DNA from: Escherichia phage vB_EcoM-UFV13
Sequence record: NC_031103.1
Length of the DNA stretch: 64,000 bases
Direction: 5' to 3' (one strand)
The position numbers and the translations under genes were made by a program. The notes under the pieces were generated by a model. That model worked only from the letters and a program-made list of their open reading frames with translations. It did no database searches and was not told where the DNA came from. Shown here piece by piece: positions 1,940 to 38,641 of this stretch. Within the stretch, counting starts at the first letter, position 1; every line of letters begins with the position of its first letter.

Positions 1940-2955
1940 TGTGTTGCCTCTACATATAACTGATTTGAATATTGAATAAGTGCTTCACGGTCAGAATCAG
2001 TGATGTCTGGAATTGCATTAATGTATTCTTCCATCAATGTCTGAAGCGATTGAACTTCAACTTCTTCACTGTCATCTGACTCGACAGAGTTATCAATTTT
2101 TGACACAACTCGTAATGAATGCACAACTTTTTCTAGTTCAGATTCGAACTTCGTCAGATTTTTGTCTACTTCAGTTACTATAACACGTACTGATAGATTT
2201 GTAAAATCTTTATAGTCAATTTTTCCTTTAAATGGATAATGAATTCTACGATGCCAGGTAGTATTGTTTGGAATAAATTCCATTCGTTCTGTTTCTGTAT
2301 CAAACATCCAGAACCCACGAGGGTCATTCTCGTCACCTGCAGTTAGTGTCCATGGTGTCCCAATATATCTGACGTTAGCAGCCTCAGAGATAGTATGGAA
2401 GTGACCAGACCACACCTCTTTATAAGTCTTAAGGAAATCAGGTTCAAGACCATGAGATTTCATTCCTTTATAAAAATAAAATCCATTCAGTTCCCAGTGA
2501 CCAACACAAAAAGAAGCAGATGAAGTTTTGATGTGTTCAAGAATTTCACCAGTATTTTCTTCACACATCCAAGGAATTAAATCAATCAAACATCCGTCAA
2601 AATCTACTGTAGTAGGCTTATCATATACTTTAACATTGGGATATTTAGCCAAAAGCTCAGTAGAGGCATTTGGAGTTAAAGTATTTTTAAAGTGCATATC
2701 ATGGTTTCCTACAACAGTATGTAGGGTAATACCAGCATCATCAAGCATTTGAACTATTTCACGAGCAAACTCCATAGTTTTATGCGTGATTGCTTTTCGC
2801 ACATCAAAAATATCGCCGTATTGAATCCAGGTAGTAATTCCATTTTTCTTAGAATATTCTATTGCTTGTTTAATTCCATCCAACTGAATGGATTGAACCC
2901 ACTCATCATCGGCTTTAACGCCTAAATGCCAATCACCTAAATTTAAAATTTTCAT
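1936..2955 (-). CDS. 47: Recombination nuclease subunit gp47 (Mre11/SbcD-like phosphoesterase)
   Basis: 339-aa ORF; metallophosphatase motifs GDWHLG, GDIFD, GNHD, GHFH; same length as T4 gp47. Confidence 0.9.
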   Translation of the reverse strand: MKILNLGDWHLGVKADDEWVQSIQLDGIKQAIEYSKKNGITTWIQYGDIFDVRKAITHKTMEFAREIVQMLDDAGITLHTVVGNHDMHFKNTLTPNASTELLAKYPNVKVYDKPTTVDFDGCLIDLIPWMCEENTGEILEHIKTSSASFCVGHWELNGFYFYKGMKSHGLEPDFLKTYKEVWSGHFHTISEAANVRYIGTPWTLTAGDENDPRGFWMFDTETERMEFIPNNTTWHRRIHYPFKGKIDYKDFTNLSVRVIVTEVDKNLTKFESELEKVVHSLRVVSKIDNSVESDDSEEVEVQSLQTLMEEYINAIPDITDSDREALIQYSNQLYVEATQ

Positions 2956-3105
2956 ATATCAAGAACCGTCATTGAAATGCAAAATAAAATTATTGAAATA
3001 AATCCATCTGGAGTGCTAAAGAACCCAATCCAACATGCTCTAGTGAATAGATAAAATGCAAGAAAAAGTATCACATATCCAAGAAATATCATTATATCAA
3101 ACTCC

Positions 3106-3130
3106 GTATAAAGCTAAAGGGCCGAAGCCC
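3106..3130 (-). terminator. Hairpin terminator after a-gt
   Basis: GGGC-CGAA-GCCC hairpin (UUCG loop on the transcript) followed by a U-rich tract, just 3' of the a-gt stop. Confidence 0.6.
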
Positions 3131-3131
3131 T

Positions 3132-4334
3132 TTATTTTGTAATAATGTCAAACTGTTCTTTAAAGCAGAAGCTTGAATCTTGGTGCTGATACAAAAATTC
3201 ATATGCTTTTTCTCGCTCACGGTCATAAAGAGCTCGGTCAGATGACAGTTCTTTAATACGTTCAAATGTTGATTCCATGTCATTTTCATCAAACCAAATG
3301 ATACCGCTATCATGCGAGGTCAAAGGAGTATTATCAACACGGAATTTTAAATTTTCGCCAGTAGATTTCCAAAATACCGGAATTGTTCCACATGCACCAA
3401 GCTCGAGATGAGTATATTCTAAAGAACGTTGTAGATATTTTTTGTCCAACTTACTCAGCTGATAACCAAATCCGGATTTACTCATACGTTCAAGCATTTC
3501 GCTATTTACATAACGGTCAAGAATTTGCGTTGGCAAATTAGGAGCAATTTTAATTTGGTCTACTTGATGAAGACGATAATACTCGTATGGAATTCCTTTT
3601 TCTTTAATGGGAATGAACGCTGGAGAACGTTCCAGACCTTCCATAATAGTACTTAGTCCTGCAGGTTTAAGATGTTTTTCATGAAAATCAAACATCTGAT
3701 AAAAACCTTTCCATGTAGTCGTACGACCAATCCAACGGTTGATATTCATGTTAATTTCAGAAACATCTTTCCAGTATGTTGACCGAACCTTCGCAATATC
3801 CATAGGAGGCTGAAAGTTATATACTGTCGGTGCTTCTTCAATATCATCAAACAGAGAAACAGTTTCTGGATACCATTCTTTCATCAGAACTTTATTAAAA
3901 TCACCATTATCAGAATGGCTAAAAATAACATCAGCTCGACGAACAGTTTCTTCTAATCCCAAATTTCGACGCAAAGAAAGAGAAGAATGGTCATGTTGAT
4001 AAACTACAACACGAACAGAAGGTTTAATGTTATCAATAATTTTTTTATAGTTATTAATAGTGTCTTCTTCAACCGAAGTAGCAGGAACTGAATTGATAAT
4101 TAGAATATCACAATCATTTACCAGCTTAAGTGTTTTATCGTATTCTTTTGCCAATAAAACCGGAATTGAAAATGATTTATAATCATGCGCACAATTACGA
4201 GTAAATGATTTATCTTTAGCATAAACCAAAGTTACTTCATGACCATTTTTAATAAACCAATCACGTTGCTCAAGAGAAAATTTAGTTACACCACAACCTT
4301 CAAGACCTCGAGCCATAAAAATACATACTTTCAT
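3132..4334 (-). CDS. a-gt: DNA alpha-glucosyltransferase
   Basis: 400-aa ORF matching the T4 alpha-glucosyltransferase as I recall it (MKVCIFMARGLEGCGVTKFS...), same length, located after gene 47. Confidence 0.85.
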   Translation of the reverse strand: MKVCIFMARGLEGCGVTKFSLEQRDWFIKNGHEVTLVYAKDKSFTRNCAHDYKSFSIPVLLAKEYDKTLKLVNDCDILIINSVPATSVEEDTINNYKKIIDNIKPSVRVVVYQHDHSSLSLRRNLGLEETVRRADVIFSHSDNGDFNKVLMKEWYPETVSLFDDIEEAPTVYNFQPPMDIAKVRSTYWKDVSEINMNINRWIGRTTTWKGFYQMFDFHEKHLKPAGLSTIMEGLERSPAFIPIKEKGIPYEYYRLHQVDQIKIAPNLPTQILDRYVNSEMLERMSKSGFGYQLSKLDKKYLQRSLEYTHLELGACGTIPVFWKSTGENLKFRVDNTPLTSHDSGIIWFDENDMESTFERIKELSSDRALYDREREKAYEFLYQHQDSSFCFKEQFDIITK

Positions 4335-18322: not shown

Positions 18323-18637
18323 CTAAAAGAAACTTCTTTCACAATTTTTTCCACTGAACCATGCGCTCACTGCTTTCTTAGTCTCAGGAGCAGTGTTATC
18401 CATAAACCACTCAAAGGCAGCCTTTTTATGATTCTGGAGGGCTTCTCGGGCTTTAATCTGCTCACGGTCTATTAACACTAACATATGAGCCTTTCTTGTC
18501 ACCAAGGGCTTCTTATGATTCTTGGAGTATTCCCAGTCATTTGTCCAACGCATTGTCGTTGCGAACTGAAATACTGCGTCTTTAATTTTAGTTTCATAAA
18601 TTTCACGAGCCTTTGAGTATAACATCANTACCTCCAT
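18323..18637 (-). CDS. Hypothetical protein
   Basis: 104-aa ORF; an ambiguous base at its 5' end makes the start uncertain. Confidence 0.4.
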   Translation of the reverse strand: MEVXMLYSKAREIYETKIKDAVFQFATTMRWTNDWEYSKNHKKPLVTRKAHMLVLIDREQIKAREALQNHKKAAFEWFMDNTAPETKKAVSAWFSGKNCERSFF

Positions 18638-18726: not shown

Positions 18727-19695
18727 TTATTTCAGAAGAGTAACCTCAGCAATTTCTTCCCAACCGTTTTTGTCGGTCATAATAAAGTCAGCAAGATAAA
18801 GTGCAGTACGCAGTGAAACATTGCGTAAACGATTAACATTGACTTTCATCCATGATAATGCTTTATAAGTTTCTTCATCAGAAAGACCGCGCTTTTGCAT
18901 CATGTCAGTTGAAAGAATAACATCTTCAACCCTGACCATAATTTCTTCATTAGTGTGAACACCCAAATCTAAATAAACTGAGCGGGACACTAATGCTTGT
19001 AAATGTGGAGCAAGTTTAGTACCACGGTCTAATTCGCGGTCAATGTCAACGTTTGTGATAAAAACAATCGTTCCTTTAAATTCAAACTCGCGCTCAATGC
19101 CTTTTTCTTCTAAGTAAGAAGATGCAGTGCTCCAGCAGACTTTACGGGTCTCTCCGGTGTCCAGAGCAGCTTTTAGAAGATTAAGAATGTCCATATCAGA
19201 GAAAACATCCACATCATCAATCAAAAGGACAGAATTCTCTTCACGATTATTCCAAAGCTGCTCATAAAGACCAATACCAGAGATTTTACCATTAATGCTT
19301 TTATACTCAATGTATCCAATATCATTTGCTTTATTTAAAGCTTTATCTAAAGAATACGTTTTACCAATACCTGCTGCACCAGAGATAATTAATGAACGAA
19401 TGTTTCCGTTAATAATACCATTCGTCATCATTCCCATAACATTAAATCTTTTATTAATGCGGGTTTTCATATCTTCATACGATTCTTTAACTTCTTCAAC
19501 TTTTACACCATCATATGAAATGTCTGATTTGTAAACCCAAACACCGCGACGTTTACCGTCAATTTCAACAAAAACTTTACCATCTCCTTGTGCATCTACC
19601 GGAGCATTATCTGGGAACCACTCACCTAAGAGTTCAAAAGTTCCAGAGATTTCTTTACCGAAGTAGATACCCTTATTGATAGTTACAGTTTTCAT
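18727..19695 (-). CDS. P-loop NTPase
   Basis: Start set at MKTVTINKG; Walker A GAAGIGKTYS and Walker B-like VLLIDDVD. Confidence 0.6.
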   Translation of the reverse strand: MKTVTINKGIYFGKEISGTFELLGEWFPDNAPVDAQGDGKVFVEIDGKRRGVWVYKSDISYDGVKVEEVKESYEDMKTRINKRFNVMGMMTNGIINGNIRSLIISGAAGIGKTYSLDKALNKANDIGYIEYKSINGKISGIGLYEQLWNNREENSVLLIDDVDVFSDMDILNLLKAALDTGETRKVCWSTASSYLEEKGIEREFEFKGTIVFITNVDIDRELDRGTKLAPHLQALVSRSVYLDLGVHTNEEIMVRVEDVILSTDMMQKRGLSDEETYKALSWMKVNVNRLRNVSLRTALYLADFIMTDKNGWEEIAEVTLLK

Positions 19696-19728
19696 TTTAT
19701 TCTCCAAATCCGTATCAGTTGATAGTTG

Positions 19729-19762
19729 TATAGTACCATAAAGCTTTATGCTTGTAAACTGT
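19729..19762 (-). promoter_or_regulatory. T4-type early promoter
   Basis: GTTTAC ... TGGTACTATAC on the minus strand, same cassette as at 18289 and 36064. Confidence 0.65.
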
Positions 19763-19779
19763 TTTGTGAAAAAATTTTT

Positions 19780-19808
19780 GAAATAAAAAAGGGAGCCCGA
19801 AGGCTCCC
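19780..19808 (-). terminator. Strong hairpin terminator
   Basis: GGGAGCC-TTCG-GGCTCCC hairpin followed by UUUUUUAUUU on the transcript, just 3' of the stop at 19811. Confidence 0.7.
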
Positions 19809-19810
19809 TA

Positions 19811-20824
19811 TCATTTATAATAACTTCGGTGGTTTTCAAGATAAACCCTCTCAAGGAAGTCATCCCAGAAACCCATGTCTACTTTTTGCTGCATACCGTT
19901 CTTAGAAGCTTCAGTAGATGCTGCTTCTACTTGATCGACCACATCTTCCAAAAACTCTTGAACCGTTTTAAATGGATGTTTACCCAACTTCACGTCGAGA
20001 ATAAATGGAGCGTCTTGAAGTGGATAAACCAAGTCACCAGTTTTGTAAATTTCCAATAGTTGGAGTCCACCACGGCAAGCATGACTCAGAGCTTTCCAGT
20101 CAATACCTTCATTGGCTTCGGCCTTACGAGCACGTTCACCATATTCAGCATCTAATTTGTTCAGTGACTGCTTAAGCTCAATAAGAGAAAGCGTTGTCTG
20201 ATATTTACGACCCAACACAGTGTAGAACGTTTGTGGGCCTGTTTTCTCATGATTATGGAACACCCATTCACAGAATTCGTTTTCTGGAAGACGATGCTTA
20301 ATATCTTCAACTTTAGTACGACGCTGCTTAATAGAACCATCTTCTTGGTAATCAACCCATTGCTCGGGGATTTGATTAACTACTTTCAATACATCACGTA
20401 ATGCAGCCAAACGAGAACCCTTGACACCGTATTTAGAAGCTTGCTTGCGGACATATCCTAAATATGATTTCATGTTAGTCGTATAAAAACGAGAACGGTT
20501 GTCTTGAATAAACTTCCACACATCAGGCAAATCAGATTTAACCACTAGCTCAGGTGGAGTGTGAAGCATATCCAACGCTACAGTTTCACCATCTGCTGCC
20601 AATTTAAAGAAATATTTAAGACTGTATAGTTCATGGTCAATATCATCTTTAGTGTTTTTAGATGATGTATTGTTAGTGTTTTTACTCATATGCTCTTTAA
20701 CATTTCCGATAAGAATATCGCGAGCAGGAGGAACAAAGATTTCTTTAAAATCTACATCAGATTCTGGAGTAGAAGTTCCATAAAGATGACTACCAAAATA
20801 GCTTTTCATTACTGTTTTCATCAT
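19811..20824 (-). CDS. Nucleotidyltransferase, pol-beta-like
   Basis: 337 aa; signature GSHLYGTSTPESDVD (GS, ten residues, DxD) near the N-terminus. Confidence 0.55.
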   Translation of the reverse strand: MMKTVMKSYFGSHLYGTSTPESDVDFKEIFVPPARDILIGNVKEHMSKNTNNTSSKNTKDDIDHELYSLKYFFKLAADGETVALDMLHTPPELVVKSDLPDVWKFIQDNRSRFYTTNMKSYLGYVRKQASKYGVKGSRLAALRDVLKVVNQIPEQWVDYQEDGSIKQRRTKVEDIKHRLPENEFCEWVFHNHEKTGPQTFYTVLGRKYQTTLSLIELKQSLNKLDAEYGERARKAEANEGIDWKALSHACRGGLQLLEIYKTGDLVYPLQDAPFILDVKLGKHPFKTVQEFLEDVVDQVEAASTEASKNGMQQKVDMGFWDDFLERVYLENHRSYYK

Positions 20825-21282
20825 TCAGCCTTATATTCAATAACAGGACATACTTTAGCTTTACGGGCTTTTAAAAATTCGACGATAATAGATTTCTTGG
20901 GTTGAATAGGAGGTAAACCTTTATACGCCCTATCAATATTTTCTACATGTAAAGCATAATCCTTTTTCCATTTATAATCTTTATATTTTTCATGCAGTTG
21001 TGCAGGAATAACAAATGAACCAATAATAAGTAAAACAAGCAAAATGGCAAGTATAAATGCTGATGGAATAAGAGTCCATAAACTACCAAAAATAAGCCAT
21101 TTCTGCATGATTTCTGCGCAGATAATAGTTAGACCTGCGAGTATAGTACATCCGAAAAAAGAAACGAAAAATGTAGGAATAACAACAGACCAAAAATATG
21201 CACACAGTGTCTTAGGTCGTTTCCATTCATCATTAAACATTTTGAATAATTTATAGTGCCAAGAGTTTTCATTAATAATCAT
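20821..21282 (-). CDS. Membrane protein (about three TM helices)
   Basis: 153 aa; hydrophobic segments VVIPTFFVSFFGCTILAGLTIICA and LIPSAFILAILLVLLIIGSFVI. Confidence 0.5.
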   Translation of the reverse strand: MIINENSWHYKLFKMFNDEWKRPKTLCAYFWSVVIPTFFVSFFGCTILAGLTIICAEIMQKWLIFGSLWTLIPSAFILAILLVLLIIGSFVIPAQLHEKYKDYKWKKDYALHVENIDRAYKGLPPIQPKKSIIVEFLKARKAKVCPVIEYKAE

Positions 21283-21284
21283 AA

Positions 21285-21806
21285 TTATCCTTTCATTGAA
21301 GGTGTAACAGTTGTTAAATACTTAATCATAGCTTCAGCTTCTGATTTTGATAATGAAATTTCTCCATTGTTTTGACGAATAGAAATAAAATCCGGATGAC
21401 GGTCACCACCAGCTTTTAAAATACACATATAAGTATCAGTTTCATCTTCAATATCTGAAATGATTGAAGCAGTTCCGCATGAATGTGGTTTTTGATAAAT
21501 CAATGCAGCTTTTCTTCCACCGTTTGACTGTTCATAAACTTTTAACACATCAAACAAATCACTTCTTTTATCAATAGCTAAGATGTTGTTTTCATCTTCA
21601 ATGTTAAATCCTTCGGATACTTCATAAAGTGTCACCCATAAATCACCGATGTCAATAACAGCATTTCCTTTTCCACGACTTTCAAGAATATGACAAATTT
21701 TCTTGATTTCGTCATAACTCATTTTAATAATATCATCTCCTTGAATAAGGAAGATGTCATTTTTAAATTTAACGCGAATTAAACCACTTCCACTTGAAAT
21801 AAACAT
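21285..21806 (-). CDS. Hypothetical protein, tandem paralog A
   Basis: 173 aa; C-terminal motif EAEAMIKYLTTVTPSM resembles its neighbour. Confidence 0.5.
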   Translation of the reverse strand: MFISSGSGLIRVKFKNDIFLIQGDDIIKMSYDEIKKICHILESRGKGNAVIDIGDLWVTLYEVSEGFNIEDENNILAIDKRSDLFDVLKVYEQSNGGRKAALIYQKPHSCGTASIISDIEDETDTYMCILKAGGDRHPDFISIRQNNGEISLSKSEAEAMIKYLTTVTPSMKG

Positions 21807-21812
21807 ATTTCC

Positions 21813-22370
21813 TCACTTTGAAATCATAGTTGGAATGACAGAATCAAGATAAGTCTTTAGCGCAATGGCTTCGTCTTTGGTAAATGTGACAATATGTGAT
21901 CGAAAATCGTCAATTTGGCGAATAGTTAAGACATCTCCCTCTTCATAACATTTTGATACATTTAAAAGAGTTTCATCATTCTGATTGCAATCGTTAGTAA
22001 TAATAGCATTGCAATTTTTGAGCCATTTTAAACTATGTTTTCTTTCATTAGAATAATAAAAATATTTAATCTTAGCTATAAAACTATCCCAATGAATAAC
22101 TGATAAACACATTGACTCACTTTTAATATTAAATCCTGGGCATGAAGAATAAAAATGAATTTTGTGCTCATCATTGATGCTTACTATTTTATCAGTATAA
22201 GGATATTCAATTTGGGTTAAATGAATGATTTCACTAGGCGTAAAATACAGCATATCGTCTTCTTGCGTCAAACGATACATGTTATTTACTTTTTCTATAG
22301 CCAATTCACCAAAAAGCGGACTAACTTCTAATACTAATCGTTTCATATTGATTCTCTTCGACTCACTCAT
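21813..22370 (-). CDS. Hypothetical protein, tandem paralog B
   Basis: 185 aa; C-terminal motif DEAIALKTYLDSVIPTM; early promoter upstream. Confidence 0.5.
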   Translation of the reverse strand: MSESKRINMKRLVLEVSPLFGELAIEKVNNMYRLTQEDDMLYFTPSEIIHLTQIEYPYTDKIVSINDEHKIHFYSSCPGFNIKSESMCLSVIHWDSFIAKIKYFYYSNERKHSLKWLKNCNAIITNDCNQNDETLLNVSKCYEEGDVLTIRQIDDFRSHIVTFTKDEAIALKTYLDSVIPTMISK

Positions 22371-22503
22371 AATTACATACTCCTTTGAATAATATCAATA
22401 ATGTTGTTCACCAGATTATAAGTAAACATCGGGTGATAATATTGAATCATCACATACACAACAAACAAAATTTTCATTCTCTTCTCCTTGGCAGTTGACA
22501 AGA

Positions 22504-22537
22504 TTACTATACCATAACCTTGCCAACTTGTAAACCA
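22504..22537 (-). promoter_or_regulatory. T4-type early promoter
   Basis: GTTTAC, 18-nt spacer, TGGTATAGT on the minus strand in a 330-bp gap. Confidence 0.6.
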
Positions 22538-22700
22538 TTAAATGACGTTTTCAATAAAATTCTGAAGCTTTGTGTGAGCATCAACCATGATTTTCATTTC
22601 TTCCTTTGCGAAAGCTGTACCTCTTTCTCGAGCAGAATACTCATAGTCAGAAACTGCATTAGCATATTCTTCAATTAGCTTCATTAAAAACATCTGCTTT

Positions 22701-22895
22701 TCAGTTTTCATTATTCCACCTAATCATTTCAAGATATTGAACTAACTTAGCTTTGGATTTATCCAAATCCTTTTTAGCTGCTTCTATGGCATCGTACGAA
22801 TATCCTTCACAATGCTCAACTGCCAATTGGTATGAATCTATTTCAATATCACGTGCTAATTTAATGATCTTTTCAAACTGTTCACGTGTTAGCAT
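22701..22895 (-). CDS. Hypothetical small protein
   Basis: 64-aa ORF. Confidence 0.45.
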   Translation of the reverse strand: MLTREQFEKIIKLARDIEIDSYQLAVEHCEGYSYDAIEAAKKDLDKSKAKLVQYLEMIRWNNEN

Positions 22896-22897
22896 AC

Positions 22898-23101
22898 TTA
22901 AACTCTCGTATTATGATCGATAATTTCATCAAGAAACATATCTAAAGCTTCTACAGCATTATCAACTTTAGCTTCAAGTTCTTCAGCGCCTTTATTTGCA
23001 ATGCCTGCCGAAAACCAAGCAAAGTCACTAAGTTCCTCGTCTGCTTTGCGAATTAAAGCTACCAATTCTTTAATTTTATCTGCTTGTTCGATACTAATCA
23101 T
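22898..23101 (-). CDS. Hypothetical small acidic protein
   Basis: Start at MISIEQADK with SD GGTGGAATAATG. Confidence 0.45.
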   Translation of the reverse strand: MISIEQADKIKELVALIRKADEELSDFAWFSAGIANKGAEELEAKVDNAVEALDMFLDEIIDHNTRV

Positions 23102-23289
23102 TATTCCACCACATATGAAAGAGAGAATATTGCACACGCCATGTGAGTTGCAACTTCATCACACATATTATAACGTTTCTTAAGAAGTTCTACCAGTTCT
23201 TCACTAGTAACTTCATCCATGTCGACGAAAAAATCACCATTGATGATGACGTAGATATTTCCTTCTTGATTGAGTGCTTCAATTTTCAT
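23101..23289 (-). CDS. Hypothetical small protein
   Basis: Start at [10 protein letters not shown] with SD AGGAGAACATC downstream of an early promoter. Confidence 0.45.
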
Positions 23290-23314
23290 GATGTTCTCCT
23301 CTTTATCCGATAGT

Positions 23315-23349
23315 TGTATAGTATCACAGCCCAAACGGAAAGTAAACCG
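23315..23349 (-). promoter_or_regulatory. T4-type early promoter
   Basis: GTTTAC, 15-nt spacer, TGATACTAT on the minus strand. Confidence 0.6.
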
Positions 23350-23351
23350 GT

Positions 23352-23379
23352 AAAATGAAAAAAGTCTCCCGAAGGAGAC
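23352..23379 (-). terminator. Hairpin terminator
   Basis: GTCTCC-TTCG-GGAGAC hairpin then UUUUUUCAUUUU on the transcript; abuts the early promoter. Confidence 0.65.
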
Positions 23380-23384
23380 TAATG

Positions 23385-23771
23385 TTATTCGAGGGAAAGA
23401 AGATACTTACTCTGGTAAAACATCCCAGTAATATCATCTATCGTGCTTTGAATGGCTGGAGGCATTTCTTTATAAATGCTGTTAGATTGGTCTAGTATGC
23501 GATCAATCATTTTAATTGTGTCGGTAGGAAGTTTACTGGCATCTGGAATTGAAGGTGTGTATTTTCTACCAGAATACCCCAAATATTGCTCACCAAATTT
23601 ATCAATCAAATCTGGCAACTCGGAAAAAATAAAATCGTATGCTTTGTGTCTAGCATAACTTTTAGTTTCAAAATGTGCAGAATGAAAATAAGCTTGTGCA
23701 GCCATTAATAAACCTAAGTATTCATCTGCCTTTGAAGGTTTTCCACTTTGTGAAAAGTCGCTGAATTTCAT
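23385..23771 (-). CDS. Hypothetical protein (rI.-1 position)
   Basis: 128-aa ORF immediately downstream of rI. Confidence 0.5.
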
Positions 23772-37810: not shown

Positions 37811-37886
37811 TGGTCGAGGCAGTAGGGATCGAACCTACGACCTAGGACTTAGAAGGTCCTTGCTCTTCCTTCTGAGCTATGCCTCG
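37811..37886 (-). tRNA. tRNA-Arg (anticodon TCT)
   Basis: Hand-folded cloverleaf: 7-bp acceptor CGAGGCA/TGCCTCG, anticodon loop CTTCTAA, T-loop TTCGATC, encoded CCA. Confidence 0.8.
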
Positions 37887-37890
37887 TATT

Positions 37891-37965
37891 TGGCGGACGT
37901 GATAGGATTCGAACCTATAACCAATCGCTTAACAGGCGATCGCTCTGCCATTGAGCTACACATCC
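37891..37965 (-). tRNA. tRNA-Asn (anticodon GTT)
   Basis: Acceptor GGATGTG/CACGTCC, anticodon stem ATCGC/GCGAT, loop CTGTTAA, T-loop TTCGAAT, encoded CCA. Confidence 0.75.
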
Positions 37966-37969
37966 AAAT

Positions 37970-38056
37970 TGGTGGGGAGTGATGGAGTCGAACCACCCGA
38001 GTCGCAATGACAATGGATTTACAGTCCACACCGCTACCTCTACGGGATAACTCCCC
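37970..38056 (-). tRNA. tRNA-Tyr (anticodon GTA), long variable arm
   Basis: Acceptor GGGGAGT/ACTCCCC, anticodon loop CTGTAAA, variable arm TGTCATTGCGACTCG resembling bacterial tRNA-Tyr, encoded CCA. Confidence 0.75.
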
Positions 38057-38068
38057 TAATTCATAATT

Positions 38069-38143
38069 TGGTGGCCCTGGGTGGAATTGAACCACCATCT
38101 GGCGATTATGAGTCGCTTGCTTGAACCTTCCAGCTACAGGGCC
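38069..38143 (-). tRNA. tRNA with CAT anticodon (Ile2-type or Met)
   Basis: Acceptor GGCCCTG/CAGGGCC, anticodon loop CTCATAA, T-loop TTCAATT, encoded CCA; the T4 tRNA-Ile uses CAU. Confidence 0.7.
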
Positions 38144-38144
38144 T

Positions 38145-38220
38145 TGGTGCTGATTGACGGAATCGAACCGCCGACCTTCTCATTACAAGTGAGTTGCTCT
38201 ACCTACTGAGCTAAATCAGC
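38145..38220 (-). tRNA. tRNA-Thr (anticodon TGT)
   Basis: Acceptor GCTGATT/AATCAGC, anticodon stem ACTCA/TGAGA, loop CTTGTAA, encoded CCA. Confidence 0.8.
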
Positions 38221-38225
38221 AAAAC

Positions 38226-38315
38226 TGGCGGAGGCGATAGGATTTGAACCTATGAGTCGCCGGAGCGACTGCCGGTTTTCAAGACCGGTGCATTAAACCA
38301 CTCTGCCACGCCTCC
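38226..38315 (-). tRNA. tRNA-Ser (anticodon TGA), long variable arm
   Basis: Acceptor GGAGGCG/CGCCTCC, anticodon stem CCGGT/ACCGG, loop CTTGAAA, encoded CCA. Confidence 0.8.
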
Positions 38316-38317
38316 AG

Positions 38318-38391
38318 TCTCCATACAAGGATTTGAACCTTGGACCTCCTGATCCCAAATCAGGCGCTCTACCAAACTGAGCTACACGGAG
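38318..38391 (-). tRNA. tRNA-Pro (anticodon TGG)
   Basis: Acceptor CTCCGTG/TATGGAG with two G-U pairs, anticodon stem CCTGA/TCAGG, loop TTTGGGA; CCA not encoded. Confidence 0.7.
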
Positions 38392-38401
38392 TAAATTAAA
38401 T

Positions 38402-38475
<74 letters not shown>

Positions 38476-38480
38476 AAATT

Positions 38481-38567
38481 TGGTGCGAGAAGTGGGACTC
38501 GAACCCACAAGGAAATCATTCCGCAGCATTTTAAGTGCTGTGCCTTTACCAATTTGACCATTCTCGC
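38481..38567 (-). tRNA. tRNA-Leu (anticodon TAA), long variable arm
   Basis: Acceptor GCGAGAA/TTCTCGC, anticodon stem CAGCA/TGCTG, loop CTTAAAA, encoded CCA. Confidence 0.8.
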
Positions 38568-38568
38568 G

Positions 38569-38641
38569 CTGGGAATAAAGGACTCGAACCTTTGCATCCT
38601 GGAATCAAAATCCAGTGCCTTACCAACTTGGCTAATTCCCA
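38569..38641 (-). tRNA. tRNA-Gln (anticodon TTG)
   Basis: Acceptor TGGGAAT/ATTCCCA, anticodon stem CTGGA/TCCAG, loop TTTTGAT; CCA not encoded. Confidence 0.7.

What the first reader, a model, noticed from the sequence alone, without database searches (positions are those of the whole stretch)
20821..22537. Tandem paralog pair and membrane protein where T4 has mobD
Where T4 carries the homing endonuclease mobD and small mobD.x genes, this window has a three-helix membrane protein followed by two similar-sized proteins (173 and 185 aa) that share a C-terminal motif (EAxAxxxYLxxVxPxM), then a 330-bp gap with an early promoter. A duplicated gene pair next to a membrane protein in a variable locus is a plausible accessory or anti-defence module.
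Basis: inference. Interest (0 to 1): 0.45.

Follow-up and report, generated by a model that had tools for sequence, protein, structure and literature searches.

The report
T-even MobD.1 paralogs plus membrane protein
This is the common, endonuclease-free form of a T-even phage early operon: two related acidic proteins predicted to fold like the DNA/RNA-binding protein Pur-alpha, followed by a conserved small membrane protein. It is real and conserved, has no known function, and nothing links it to anti-defence.

Summary
The three ORFs are real and the two soluble proteins are true paralogs (26% identity, E 7e-9). Both match Pfam T4_y05I_N and T4_y05I_C.

The framing needs correcting:
- The 185-aa protein is the ortholog of T4 MobD.1 (87% identity).
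- T4's mobD cassette replaces only window 20826-21787, the 173-aa paralog plus the membrane gene. T4 still keeps that paralog's ribosome-binding site and first six codons.
- The window's layout is the majority state: at least 427 phage records against 47 with the T4-type mobD layout.
- The "330-bp gap" is 167 bp and holds the conserved 34-aa mobD.2 ORF. About 60 bp is non-coding and carries a T4-early-type promoter.

The unit is promoter, mobD.2, mobD.1, paralog B, membrane protein, nrdC.11, terminator.

In every T4-like lineage checked outside the mobD allele, a y05I C-domain gene sits directly upstream of the membrane gene. More distant phages have the membrane gene alone.

Most likely these are dimerising Pur-like adaptors that act with the membrane protein. 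This is inferred, not shown.

The parts
22506..22534 (-). T4-early-type promoter (TTTACA, 17 nt, tgTATAGT; GTTTAC at -35) that heads the operon
   Evidence: It was the best-scoring sigma-70-like site in the scan of 19500-23500 (10 of 12 matches, with an extended -10 TG). The sequence is almost identical in T4.
22373..22477 (-). mobD.2 ortholog, a 34-aa hydrophobic micro-protein (MKILFVVYVMIQYYHPMFTYNLVNNIIDIIQRSM).
   Evidence: It aligns with annotated T4 mobD.2. It has an AAGGAG ribosome-binding site. Homologs occur in Mosigvirus, Winklervirus, Jiaodavirus, Gelderlandvirus and phage Ursula.
21813..22370 (-). y05I paralog A, the ortholog of T4 MobD.1 (185 aa). Predicted to contain three beta-beta-beta-beta-alpha (Pur-like) repeats.
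21285..21806 (-). y05I paralog B (173 aa). It is the faster-evolving tandem copy, absent from T4 and directly upstream of the membrane gene.
20821..21282 (-). Conserved small inner-membrane protein (153 aa; RB69ORF104c-like, phrog_944). It has two long hydrophobic stretches and a basic C-terminal tail with the motif [FY][LI]KA[RK]KxK.CP.[IL].[FY].
   Evidence: Hydropathy profile and pI 9.3. Matches phrog_944, E 2e-50. Homologs in 927 phage records and 348 protein clusters. Alignment A7 shows the conserved tail. dN/dS 0.03-0.05.
19811..20824 (-). nrdC.11, an RlaP-type nucleotidyltransferase. It is the last gene of the unit, and its start overlaps the stop codon of the membrane gene.
   Evidence: Matches Pfam RlaP PF10127, E 2.4e-11, and phrog_388, E 8e-137. 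96% DNA identity to T4.
19790..19809 (-). Intrinsic terminator that closes the unit (8-bp stem with 6 GC pairs, then a T-run)
   Evidence: Found by the terminator scan. A terminator is annotated at the equivalent place in JB75 and SA20RB.
20826..21787 (.). The interval that T4 and 46 other records have replaced with the mobD homing-endonuclease cassette
   Evidence: blastn of the window against T4 breaks at 20825/20826 and 21787/21788. T4 keeps the ribosome-binding site and the first 19 nt of paralog B. Only 47 of 503 matching records carry mobD here.

Best explanation
SHOWN. The interval is the ancestral, mobD-free allele of the nrdC.11-mobD.1 region of T-even phages. It is one tightly packed early transcription unit: early promoter, mobD.2, MobD.1 (paralog A), paralog B, membrane protein, nrdC.11, terminator. 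A and B belong to the phage-restricted Pfam family T4_y05I. [quoted passage not shown] Repeats I and II form one PC4-like/Whirly-like domain whose best structural match is Pur-alpha repeats I-II. Repeat III is a sequence-detectable copy of repeat I and also exists as stand-alone 70-87-aa proteins. The whole family is acidic. Among enterobacterial T4-like phages, a gene carrying repeat III is always the immediate upstream neighbour of the membrane gene.

INFERRED mechanism. A single repeat of this fold is not expected to be stable alone. Repeat III, which carries the conserved C-terminal helix (K.EA.AL..YL..VIPTM), therefore most likely pairs two chains, as Pur-alpha repeat III does. In Tequatroviruses this would give A-A, B-B or A-B dimers. 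The conserved surface positions are acidic rather than basic or aromatic, and the linked membrane protein has a conserved, strongly basic cytoplasmic tail. I therefore think these proteins are protein-binding adaptors that work at the inner membrane with the downstream membrane protein. The nearest analogy is the Whirly-fold protein SsgB, whose correct placement depends on the membrane protein SepG. I do not think they are classical single-strand nucleic-acid binders. The cellular process affected is unknown. It is dispensable for laboratory growth.
For: Identity and layout:
- ORFs and spacing.
- Promoter and terminator.
- Orthology to T4 MobD.1 and paralogy between A and B.
- Pfam T4_y05I_N and T4_y05I_C matches.
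- Junctions of the T4 replacement and the remnant of paralog B in T4.
- 427 or more records with this layout against 47 with mobD.

Fold:
- Model of paralog A with pLDDT 87.3 and three b4-a units.
- The independent model of paralog B gave the same ranking.
- Repeat I against repeat III by local hhalign: probability 87%, E 4e-6. The C-domain HMM also gives a secondary hit on repeat I.

Need for pairing: single b4-a repeats are considered unlikely to fold alone, and Pur-alpha repeat III dimerises (PMC7549692).

Acidity:
- pI 4.2-5.8 in 32 of the 34 aligned family members (two stand-alone C-domain proteins are higher, at 6.7 and 9.2), with N-domain net charge of -4 to -12.
- 14 conserved acidic positions against 6 conserved basic ones, several of the acidic ones on strands.

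Linkage to the membrane gene:
- Adjacent in Tequatrovirus, Mosigvirus, Dhakavirus, Karamvirus, Jiaodavirus, Winklervirus, Kanagawavirus, Gelderlandvirus, phage Ursula and two metagenomic lineages, even though the surrounding genes differ.
- 21 of 31 IMG/VR loci.
- In T4, paralog B and the membrane gene were lost together.

All genes are under purifying selection. The SsgB-SepG precedent comes from PMC8061694.
Against: - No interaction was tested.
- Adjacency within one virus subfamily may be inherited synteny rather than functional coupling.
- The membrane gene occurs without any detectable y05I gene in more distant phages: Aeromonas AP1, roughly 93-kb phages and others.
- T4-type phages keep MobD.1 without the membrane protein, so paralog A at least does not strictly need it.
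[quoted passage not shown] Overall acidity does not exclude a local binding patch.
Confidence: 0.45

Rival explanations
1. The paralogs are classical Pur-alpha/Whirly-type single-stranded DNA or RNA binders. They would be early regulators of transcription, mRNA fate or replication, as the Pfam name "putative transcription factor" implies. The neighbouring membrane gene would be unrelated.
For: - The top structural matches are all nucleic-acid binders: Pur-alpha, p24/Whirly, MRP1/2, PC4/Sub1 and Borrelia Pur-alpha.
- The fold's usual role is binding single-stranded nucleic acid (PMC7549692).
- A phage Whirly-fold protein, ChmC, binds RNA.
- Early expression fits a takeover regulator.
- T4 keeps MobD.1 without the membrane gene.
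Against: - The family is uniformly acidic, with acidic rather than basic or aromatic conserved strand positions. ChmC binding, by contrast, depends on Lys/Arg clusters.
- No sequence match to the PUR, Whirly or PC4 profiles.
- This reading does not explain the persistent adjacency of the C-domain gene and the membrane gene across rearranged neighbourhoods.
Confidence: 0.3
2. One reading: the paralog pair and the membrane protein form an accessory anti-defence or exclusion module. It could, for example, neutralise a host immune sensor or block superinfecting or competitor phage at the membrane.
For: - Early promoter and dispensability in the laboratory.
- Decay of the genes in T2.
- Faster evolution of paralog B, with dN/dS up to 0.46.
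- Recombinant, chimeric and mosaic alleles.
- Acidic small proteins and small membrane proteins are typical of phage counter-defence and exclusion functions (general knowledge).
Against: - No homology to any known defence or anti-defence protein. No literature on the genes.
- The membrane gene is highly conserved (dN/dS 0.03-0.05) and nearly universal in the subfamily, which is unlike a strain-variable accessory gene.
- The locus is the majority state, not an island.
Confidence: 0.15
3. The genes are functionless passengers, decaying leftovers of a duplication, retained only by linkage.
For: T2 has both paralogs broken. T4 lost paralog B and the membrane gene with no obvious cost, and a T4 deletion covering nrdC.11 to mobD.3 is viable.
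Against: - Intact reading frames in more than 400 genomes with dN/dS well below 1.
- The family is conserved across at least 9 genera.
- Tight translational coupling and a conserved promoter.
Confidence: 0.05

Closest known systems
T4 MobD.1 (UniProt Y05I_BPT4), Pfam T4_y05I_N (PF24449) and T4_y05I_C (PF24448)
   Same: Paralog A is its ortholog at 87% identity. Both paralogs match both Pfam domains far above the gathering score. Paralog A sits at the same genomic position downstream of mobD.2.
   Different: T4 has only one copy. It lacks paralog B and the membrane gene, which mobD replaced. The family has no experimental characterisation; "putative transcription factor" is only a database label.
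Pur-alpha (PURA), PDB 3k44 (repeats I-II) and 5fgo/8chw (repeat III)
   Different: Only 4-13% identity and no PUR profile match. Acidic rather than basic. Restricted to phages. Neither nucleic-acid binding nor dimerisation has been tested.
Whirly / MRP1-MRP2 / jumbo-phage ChmC
   Different: Those proteins form tetramers with Lys/Arg-rich RNA- or DNA-binding faces. Here the conserved charges are acidic, and there is an extra third repeat.
SsgB (an SsgA-like protein) with the membrane protein SepG in Streptomyces
   Different: No sequence relationship. SsgB is a single-domain trimer and an actinobacterial cell-division factor. The parallel is an analogy, not evidence of homology.
Free-standing HNH homing endonuclease MobD of T4
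   Same: It occupies exactly the interval that paralog B and the membrane gene occupy here. The review lists its insertion site as nrdC.11/mobD.1 and its target as unknown (PMC2988022).
   Different: The window has no mobD. It is the endonuclease-free allele and therefore a candidate source of the uncut MobD target site.

Membership tests
Pfam T4_y05I (MobD.1) family | Matches to PF24449 (N-domain) and PF24448 (C-domain) above the gathering scores | tested here: met
   Paralog A scores 133.1 and 76.7 bits and paralog B 112.2 and 82.6 bits, against cut-offs of 24.9 and 27. Both also match phrog_1502.
Pfam T4_y05I (MobD.1) family | Orthology to T4 MobD.1 at the syntenic position | tested here: met
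   Met for paralog A: 87% identity and the same flanks. Paralog B is a paralog at 25% identity.
Pur-alpha / PUR-repeat proteins | [quoted passage not shown] | tested here: met
Pur-alpha / PUR-repeat proteins | Sequence match to the PUR repeat profile | tested here: not met
   No PurA/PUR hit at E up to 0.1 in Pfam. Structural alignments show 4-13% identity.
Pur-alpha / PUR-repeat proteins | Basic and aromatic nucleic-acid-binding beta-sheet surface | tested here: not met
   pI 4.2-5.8 in 32 of 34 aligned members and N-domain net charge of -4 to -12. Conserved strand positions are mostly Asp/Glu. This was judged from sequence only, without a surface calculation.
Pur-alpha / PUR-repeat proteins | Dimerisation through repeat III; binding of single-stranded DNA or RNA | not testable with these tools
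   No multimer prediction or biochemistry was available.
PC4-like / Whirly-like fold superfamily (structural class) | b-b-b-b-a, linker, b-b-b-b-a topology with significant structural similarity to several members | tested here: met
SsgA-like proteins | Sequence membership in the SsgA family | tested here: not met
Known anti-phage defence or anti-defence proteins | Homology to a catalogued defence or counter-defence protein | tested here: not met
   No PADLOC hit at E up to 0.1 for any of five proteins. No NCBIfam hit. PADLOC covers defence proteins, not anti-defence proteins, so this is a weak test.
Free-standing homing endonuclease cassette (mobD) | Presence of an HNH endonuclease ORF between nrdC.11 and mobD.1 | tested here: not met
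   The window has no similarity to T4 mobD. The 808-bp T4 segment is replaced by 962 bp of unrelated sequence.

The most novel reading that the evidence does not exclude
The y05I/MobD.1 proteins would be a phage-specific, acidic, three-repeat Pur-alpha-like scaffold. That would make them the second protein class, after Pur-alpha, reported to combine an intramolecular and an intermolecular PC4-like domain. Their third repeat would pair the two paralogs into a heterodimer and dock it on the basic cytoplasmic tail of the conserved downstream membrane protein. The result would be a previously unrecognised membrane-anchored early complex of T-even phages, for example for excluding incoming DNA or countering a membrane-associated host defence. 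T4, the model phage, happens to have lost most of this complex to a homing endonuclease, which would explain why it was never studied.
Probability: 0.15. Interest if true: 0.6.

Novelty: new member of a known kind. Interest (0 to 1): 0.3.

Why it matters
T4 is the reference for this virus group, yet at this spot it is atypical. A homing endonuclease removed two genes that about 90% of sequenced relatives keep, so a conserved gene pair has escaped attention. That pair is a Pur-like-repeat protein followed by a membrane protein.

If the proteins prove to be dimeric Pur-alpha-like adaptors, they would extend a fold known mainly for nucleic-acid binding to an acidic, phage-specific variant.

The endonuclease-free allele also offers a direct way to look for MobD's unknown cleavage target.

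As it stands, this is a tidy annotation and evolutionary clarification, not a new kind of system.

Tried and rejected
- PDB sequence search with paralog A gave only chance-level hits.
- Literature searches for mobD.1, y05I and nrdC.11 found no functional data. They gave only the homing-endonuclease review and a genome-reduction paper.
- NCBIfam and PADLOC returned nothing significant.
- Rfam found no RNA family in the locus, and there is no late-promoter box TATAAATA between 19800 and 22600.
- Foldseek against afdb50 was unavailable. BFVD returned only uncharacterised members of the same family.
- The exhaustive profile search found only 30 cluster representatives among 1.8 billion proteins. 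The one large hit (P0066, 1572 aa) looks like a spurious match to a repeat protein.
- A viral-contig scan with the C-domain alignment failed because no stretch was conserved enough. The membrane-protein alignment was used instead.
- I tested whether the gene upstream of distant membrane-protein homologs (Aeromonas phage AP1 and a metagenomic T4-like contig) belongs to the y05I family. It does not. The pairing is therefore limited to enterobacterial T4-like phages.
- hhalign found no sequence similarity between repeat II and repeats I or III.
- I considered and rejected the idea that the 40-aa ORF at 22416-22538 is a gene. It overlaps the promoter and is not the conserved reading frame.
- Plus-strand ORFs in the interval are short and have no support.
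Full report
**Source and layout.** The window comes from a Tequatrovirus (T4-like) phage, and the genes in this part all run on the minus strand. In transcription order the ORFs are tk, rI.1, rI, rI.-1, a terminator, mobD.5, mobD.4, mobD.3, mobD.2a, and then the interval in question (annotated relatives). The whole 2.3-kb stretch is 90-99% identical in 522 phage records, and 427 of them cover at least 80% of it.

**The paralogy is real.**
- The 173-aa and 185-aa proteins align end to end at 26% identity, E 7e-9.
- Both match the same two Pfam domains, T4_y05I_N (PF24449) and T4_y05I_C (PF24448), far above threshold. Both also match phrog_1502.
- The shared C-terminal motif is genuine, and in-frame matches to its core pattern occur only in these two genes.
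- The family is small. An exhaustive profile search of 1.8 billion representative proteins found only 30 clusters. They include stand-alone C-domain proteins of 65-87 aa.

**The comparison with T4 needs correcting.**
- The 185-aa protein is the ortholog of T4 MobD.1: 87% identity, E 1e-119. The 173-aa protein, which I call paralog B, is only 25% identical to it.
- DNA homology with T4 runs through nrdC.11 up to window position 20825 and resumes at 21788. Window 20826-21787 holds the membrane gene and all but the first 19 nt of paralog B. In T4 this stretch is replaced by the 808-bp mobD cassette.
- T4 still carries the ribosome-binding site and the first six codons (ATGTTTATTTCAAGTGGAA) of paralog B immediately after the mobD.1 stop codon.
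- Only 47 of 503 matching records have the T4-type mobD arrangement.
- Outgroup genera have a y05I gene followed by the membrane gene and no mobD.
- The window therefore shows the ancestral, majority state, and T4 is derived. MobD is an uncharacterised free-standing HNH endonuclease. Its insertion site is listed as nrdC.11/mobD.1 and its target as unknown (PMC2988022).

**The "330-bp gap" is not a gap.**
- The distance between the 185-aa start codon and the stop of mobD.2a is 167 bp.
- Most of that is the ortholog of T4 mobD.2, a 34-aa hydrophobic micro-protein with a strong ribosome-binding site. It is conserved in at least six genera.
- About 60 bp is non-coding. It carries the best promoter match in the region: GTTTACA, spacer, tgTATAGT at 22534-22506. 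T4 has almost the same sequence.
- Gene spacing is 2, 6 and 2 nt, then an overlap. A clean intrinsic terminator follows nrdC.11 at 19790-19809.
- The unit is therefore: promoter, mobD.2, MobD.1, paralog B, membrane protein, nrdC.11, terminator.
- No Rfam family and no late-promoter box lie inside it.

**Predicted structure.**
- The model of paralog B was good only for its N-terminal domain (pLDDT 69 overall).
- The model of paralog A, built on a 34-sequence alignment, was confident throughout (pLDDT 87.3).
- Both show three beta-beta-beta-beta-alpha units.
  - Next come the Whirly proteins p24 and StWhy2, MRP1 and MRP2, SsgB, the KhtT N-domain, Pur-alpha repeat III, Borrelia Pur-alpha, and PC4/Sub1.
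- Repeat III is recognisably related in sequence to repeat I: local hhalign probability 87%, E 4e-6, plus a secondary hit of the C-domain HMM on repeat I. Repeat II is similar only in structure.
- The layout is thus an intramolecular two-repeat domain plus a lone third repeat. That is the Pur-alpha architecture, which a 2020 review called the only reported case combining both domain types (PMC7549692).
- The same review argues that a single repeat is unlikely to fold alone. On that basis I infer dimerisation through repeat III.

**Against simply calling them nucleic-acid binders.**
- The family is almost uniformly acidic: pI 4.2-5.8 in 32 of 34 aligned members and N-domain net charge of -4 to -12.
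- Conserved charged positions are 14 acidic against 6 basic, and several of the acidic ones lie on beta strands.
- There is no sequence match to the PUR, Whirly or PC4 profiles.
- The phage Whirly-fold RNA binder ChmC, by contrast, depends on clusters of Lys and Arg.
- SsgB has the same fold but works through protein contacts, and it is positioned with the help of the membrane protein SepG (PMC8061694). It is therefore the better functional analogy.

**Linkage to the membrane gene.**
- The membrane protein has two long hydrophobic stretches, a basic N-terminus, and a conserved basic C-terminal tail with the motif [FY][LI]KA[RK]KxK.CP.[IL].[FY]. This fits two spans with both ends in the cytoplasm better than three helices.
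- It is far more widespread than the paralogs: 927 phage records and 348 protein clusters.
- In every enterobacterial T4-like lineage examined, the gene immediately upstream contains the y05I C-domain. This holds for:
  - two full-length copies in Tequatrovirus;
  - one full-length copy in Mosigvirus, Dhakavirus and two metagenomic lineages;
  - a stand-alone C-domain gene in Karamvirus, Jiaodavirus, Winklervirus, Kanagawavirus and Gelderlandvirus;
  - two tandem C-domain genes in phage Ursula.
- The pairing holds even though the genes on either side of the pair differ between genera.
- In an unbiased IMG/VR sample, 21 of 31 loci with a membrane homolog have a y05I gene directly upstream. The 10 without it are all distant homologs (33% identity or less) in other phage types.
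- Two such distant contexts checked by hand also lack it.
- The pairing is therefore conserved but not universal. Part of it could be inherited synteny.

**Selection and turnover.**
- All genes are under purifying selection. dN/dS is 0-0.11 for MobD.1, 0.16-0.46 for paralog B, 0.03-0.05 for the membrane protein, and about 0.05 for nrdC.11. These come from few pairwise comparisons.
- The single-copy genes of Mosigvirus and Dhakavirus resemble paralog A (46-52% identity) much more than paralog B (27-29%). Paralog B is therefore the fast-evolving product of a duplication within Tequatrovirus.
- The locus is dispensable in the laboratory:
  - a T4 deletion spanning nrdC.11 to mobD.3 is viable (PMC9825161);
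  - T2 has both paralogs split across three reading frames, and the N-terminus of its membrane gene is frameshifted.
- Recombinant forms exist: an A-N/B-C chimera, and a fusion of the MobD.1 N-terminus to the nrdC.11 C-terminus.

**Verdict.**
It is wrong about the gap and imprecise about T4.
The paralog pair and its tie to the membrane gene are real. The locus is nevertheless the normal state of T-even phages, it belongs to an existing though uncharacterised Pfam family, and nothing links it to anti-defence.
- My best mechanistic reading is that these are acidic, dimerising Pur-like adaptors acting with the membrane protein. This is an inference held at moderate confidence.
- The main rival is classical binding of single-stranded nucleic acid.
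- Interest is modest. The useful outcomes are:
  - a corrected annotation;
  - the fold assignment;
  - recognition of a conserved two-gene pair that T4 lacks;
  - a handle on MobD's target.

Noticed in passing
window 22538-22711, 22701-22895, 22898-23101 (minus strand): mobD.2a, mobD.3 and mobD.4 are three tandem paralogs of one small family, Pfam DUF7438, each at about E 1e-16. This is a second tandem array directly upstream of the locus.
   Followed up: partly
window 22373-22477 (minus strand): mobD.2 is a 34-aa hydrophobic micro-protein with a core conserved across at least six Tevenvirinae genera (MK.L....Y..VQY..P[ML]FTYNLVN). It is unannotated in many records, and in T2 a different reading frame was annotated instead.
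   Followed up: partly
L009 (phage T2, PV958097) 2416-3981: In T2 both y05I paralogs are split over three reading frames each, and the membrane gene has a frameshifted N-terminus. The whole module looks as though it is decaying in this laboratory phage.
   Followed up: partly
proteins P0011 and P0049 (metagenomic relatives): P0011 is a chimera of the N-terminal part of MobD.1 with the C-terminal part of paralog B, which suggests unequal recombination between the tandem copies. P0049 fuses the MobD.1 N-terminus to the nrdC.11 C-terminus, a deletion that removes paralog B and the membrane gene.
   Followed up: no
L013 (phage SA20RB) 2001-2447: This Tequatrovirus has the usual paralog pair but a membrane-protein allele only 29% identical to the window's and closer to the JS10/Dhakavirus type. 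The membrane gene alone seems to have been replaced in a mosaic fashion.
   Followed up: no
L012 (Citrobacter phage Ursula) 1548-2001: Two tandem stand-alone C-domain genes (phrog_7763 and phrog_10804) precede the membrane gene. Tandem duplication of the repeat-III module has therefore happened more than once.
   Followed up: partly
L042, L043, L046, L048 (about 93-kb viral contigs); L010 (Aeromonas phage AP1, 254 kb); L034 (232-kb viral contig): Distant homologs of the membrane protein occur in unrelated genome contexts and phage size classes, with no y05I gene upstream.
   Followed up: partly
L016 989-1189 and 1543-1707; L017 2273-2488: Small DUF7189 genes lie just upstream of y05I in distant lineages. 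Paralog B itself gave a sub-threshold DUF7189 hit (E 2.9e-4, residues 15-42), which hints that DUF7189 may be another single-repeat relative.
   Followed up: no
window 18727-19863 (minus strand): The mechanical 378-aa ORF for nrdC.10, an AAA/STAND-like ATPase, extends through the terminator and overlaps nrdC.11. Relatives and the phrog match indicate that the real start gives about 322 aa.
   Followed up: no
window 18628, 18639, 18655, 18666, 26093, 26100 and 15 more positions: The window contains 21 isolated N bases. None lie in the locus. Two (18628, 18639) fall within or immediately next to the ORF at 18323-18637, and two more lie just upstream of it.
   Followed up: no
window 37814-38641 (minus strand): A cluster of ten tRNA genes, the usual T-even tRNA region.
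   Followed up: no
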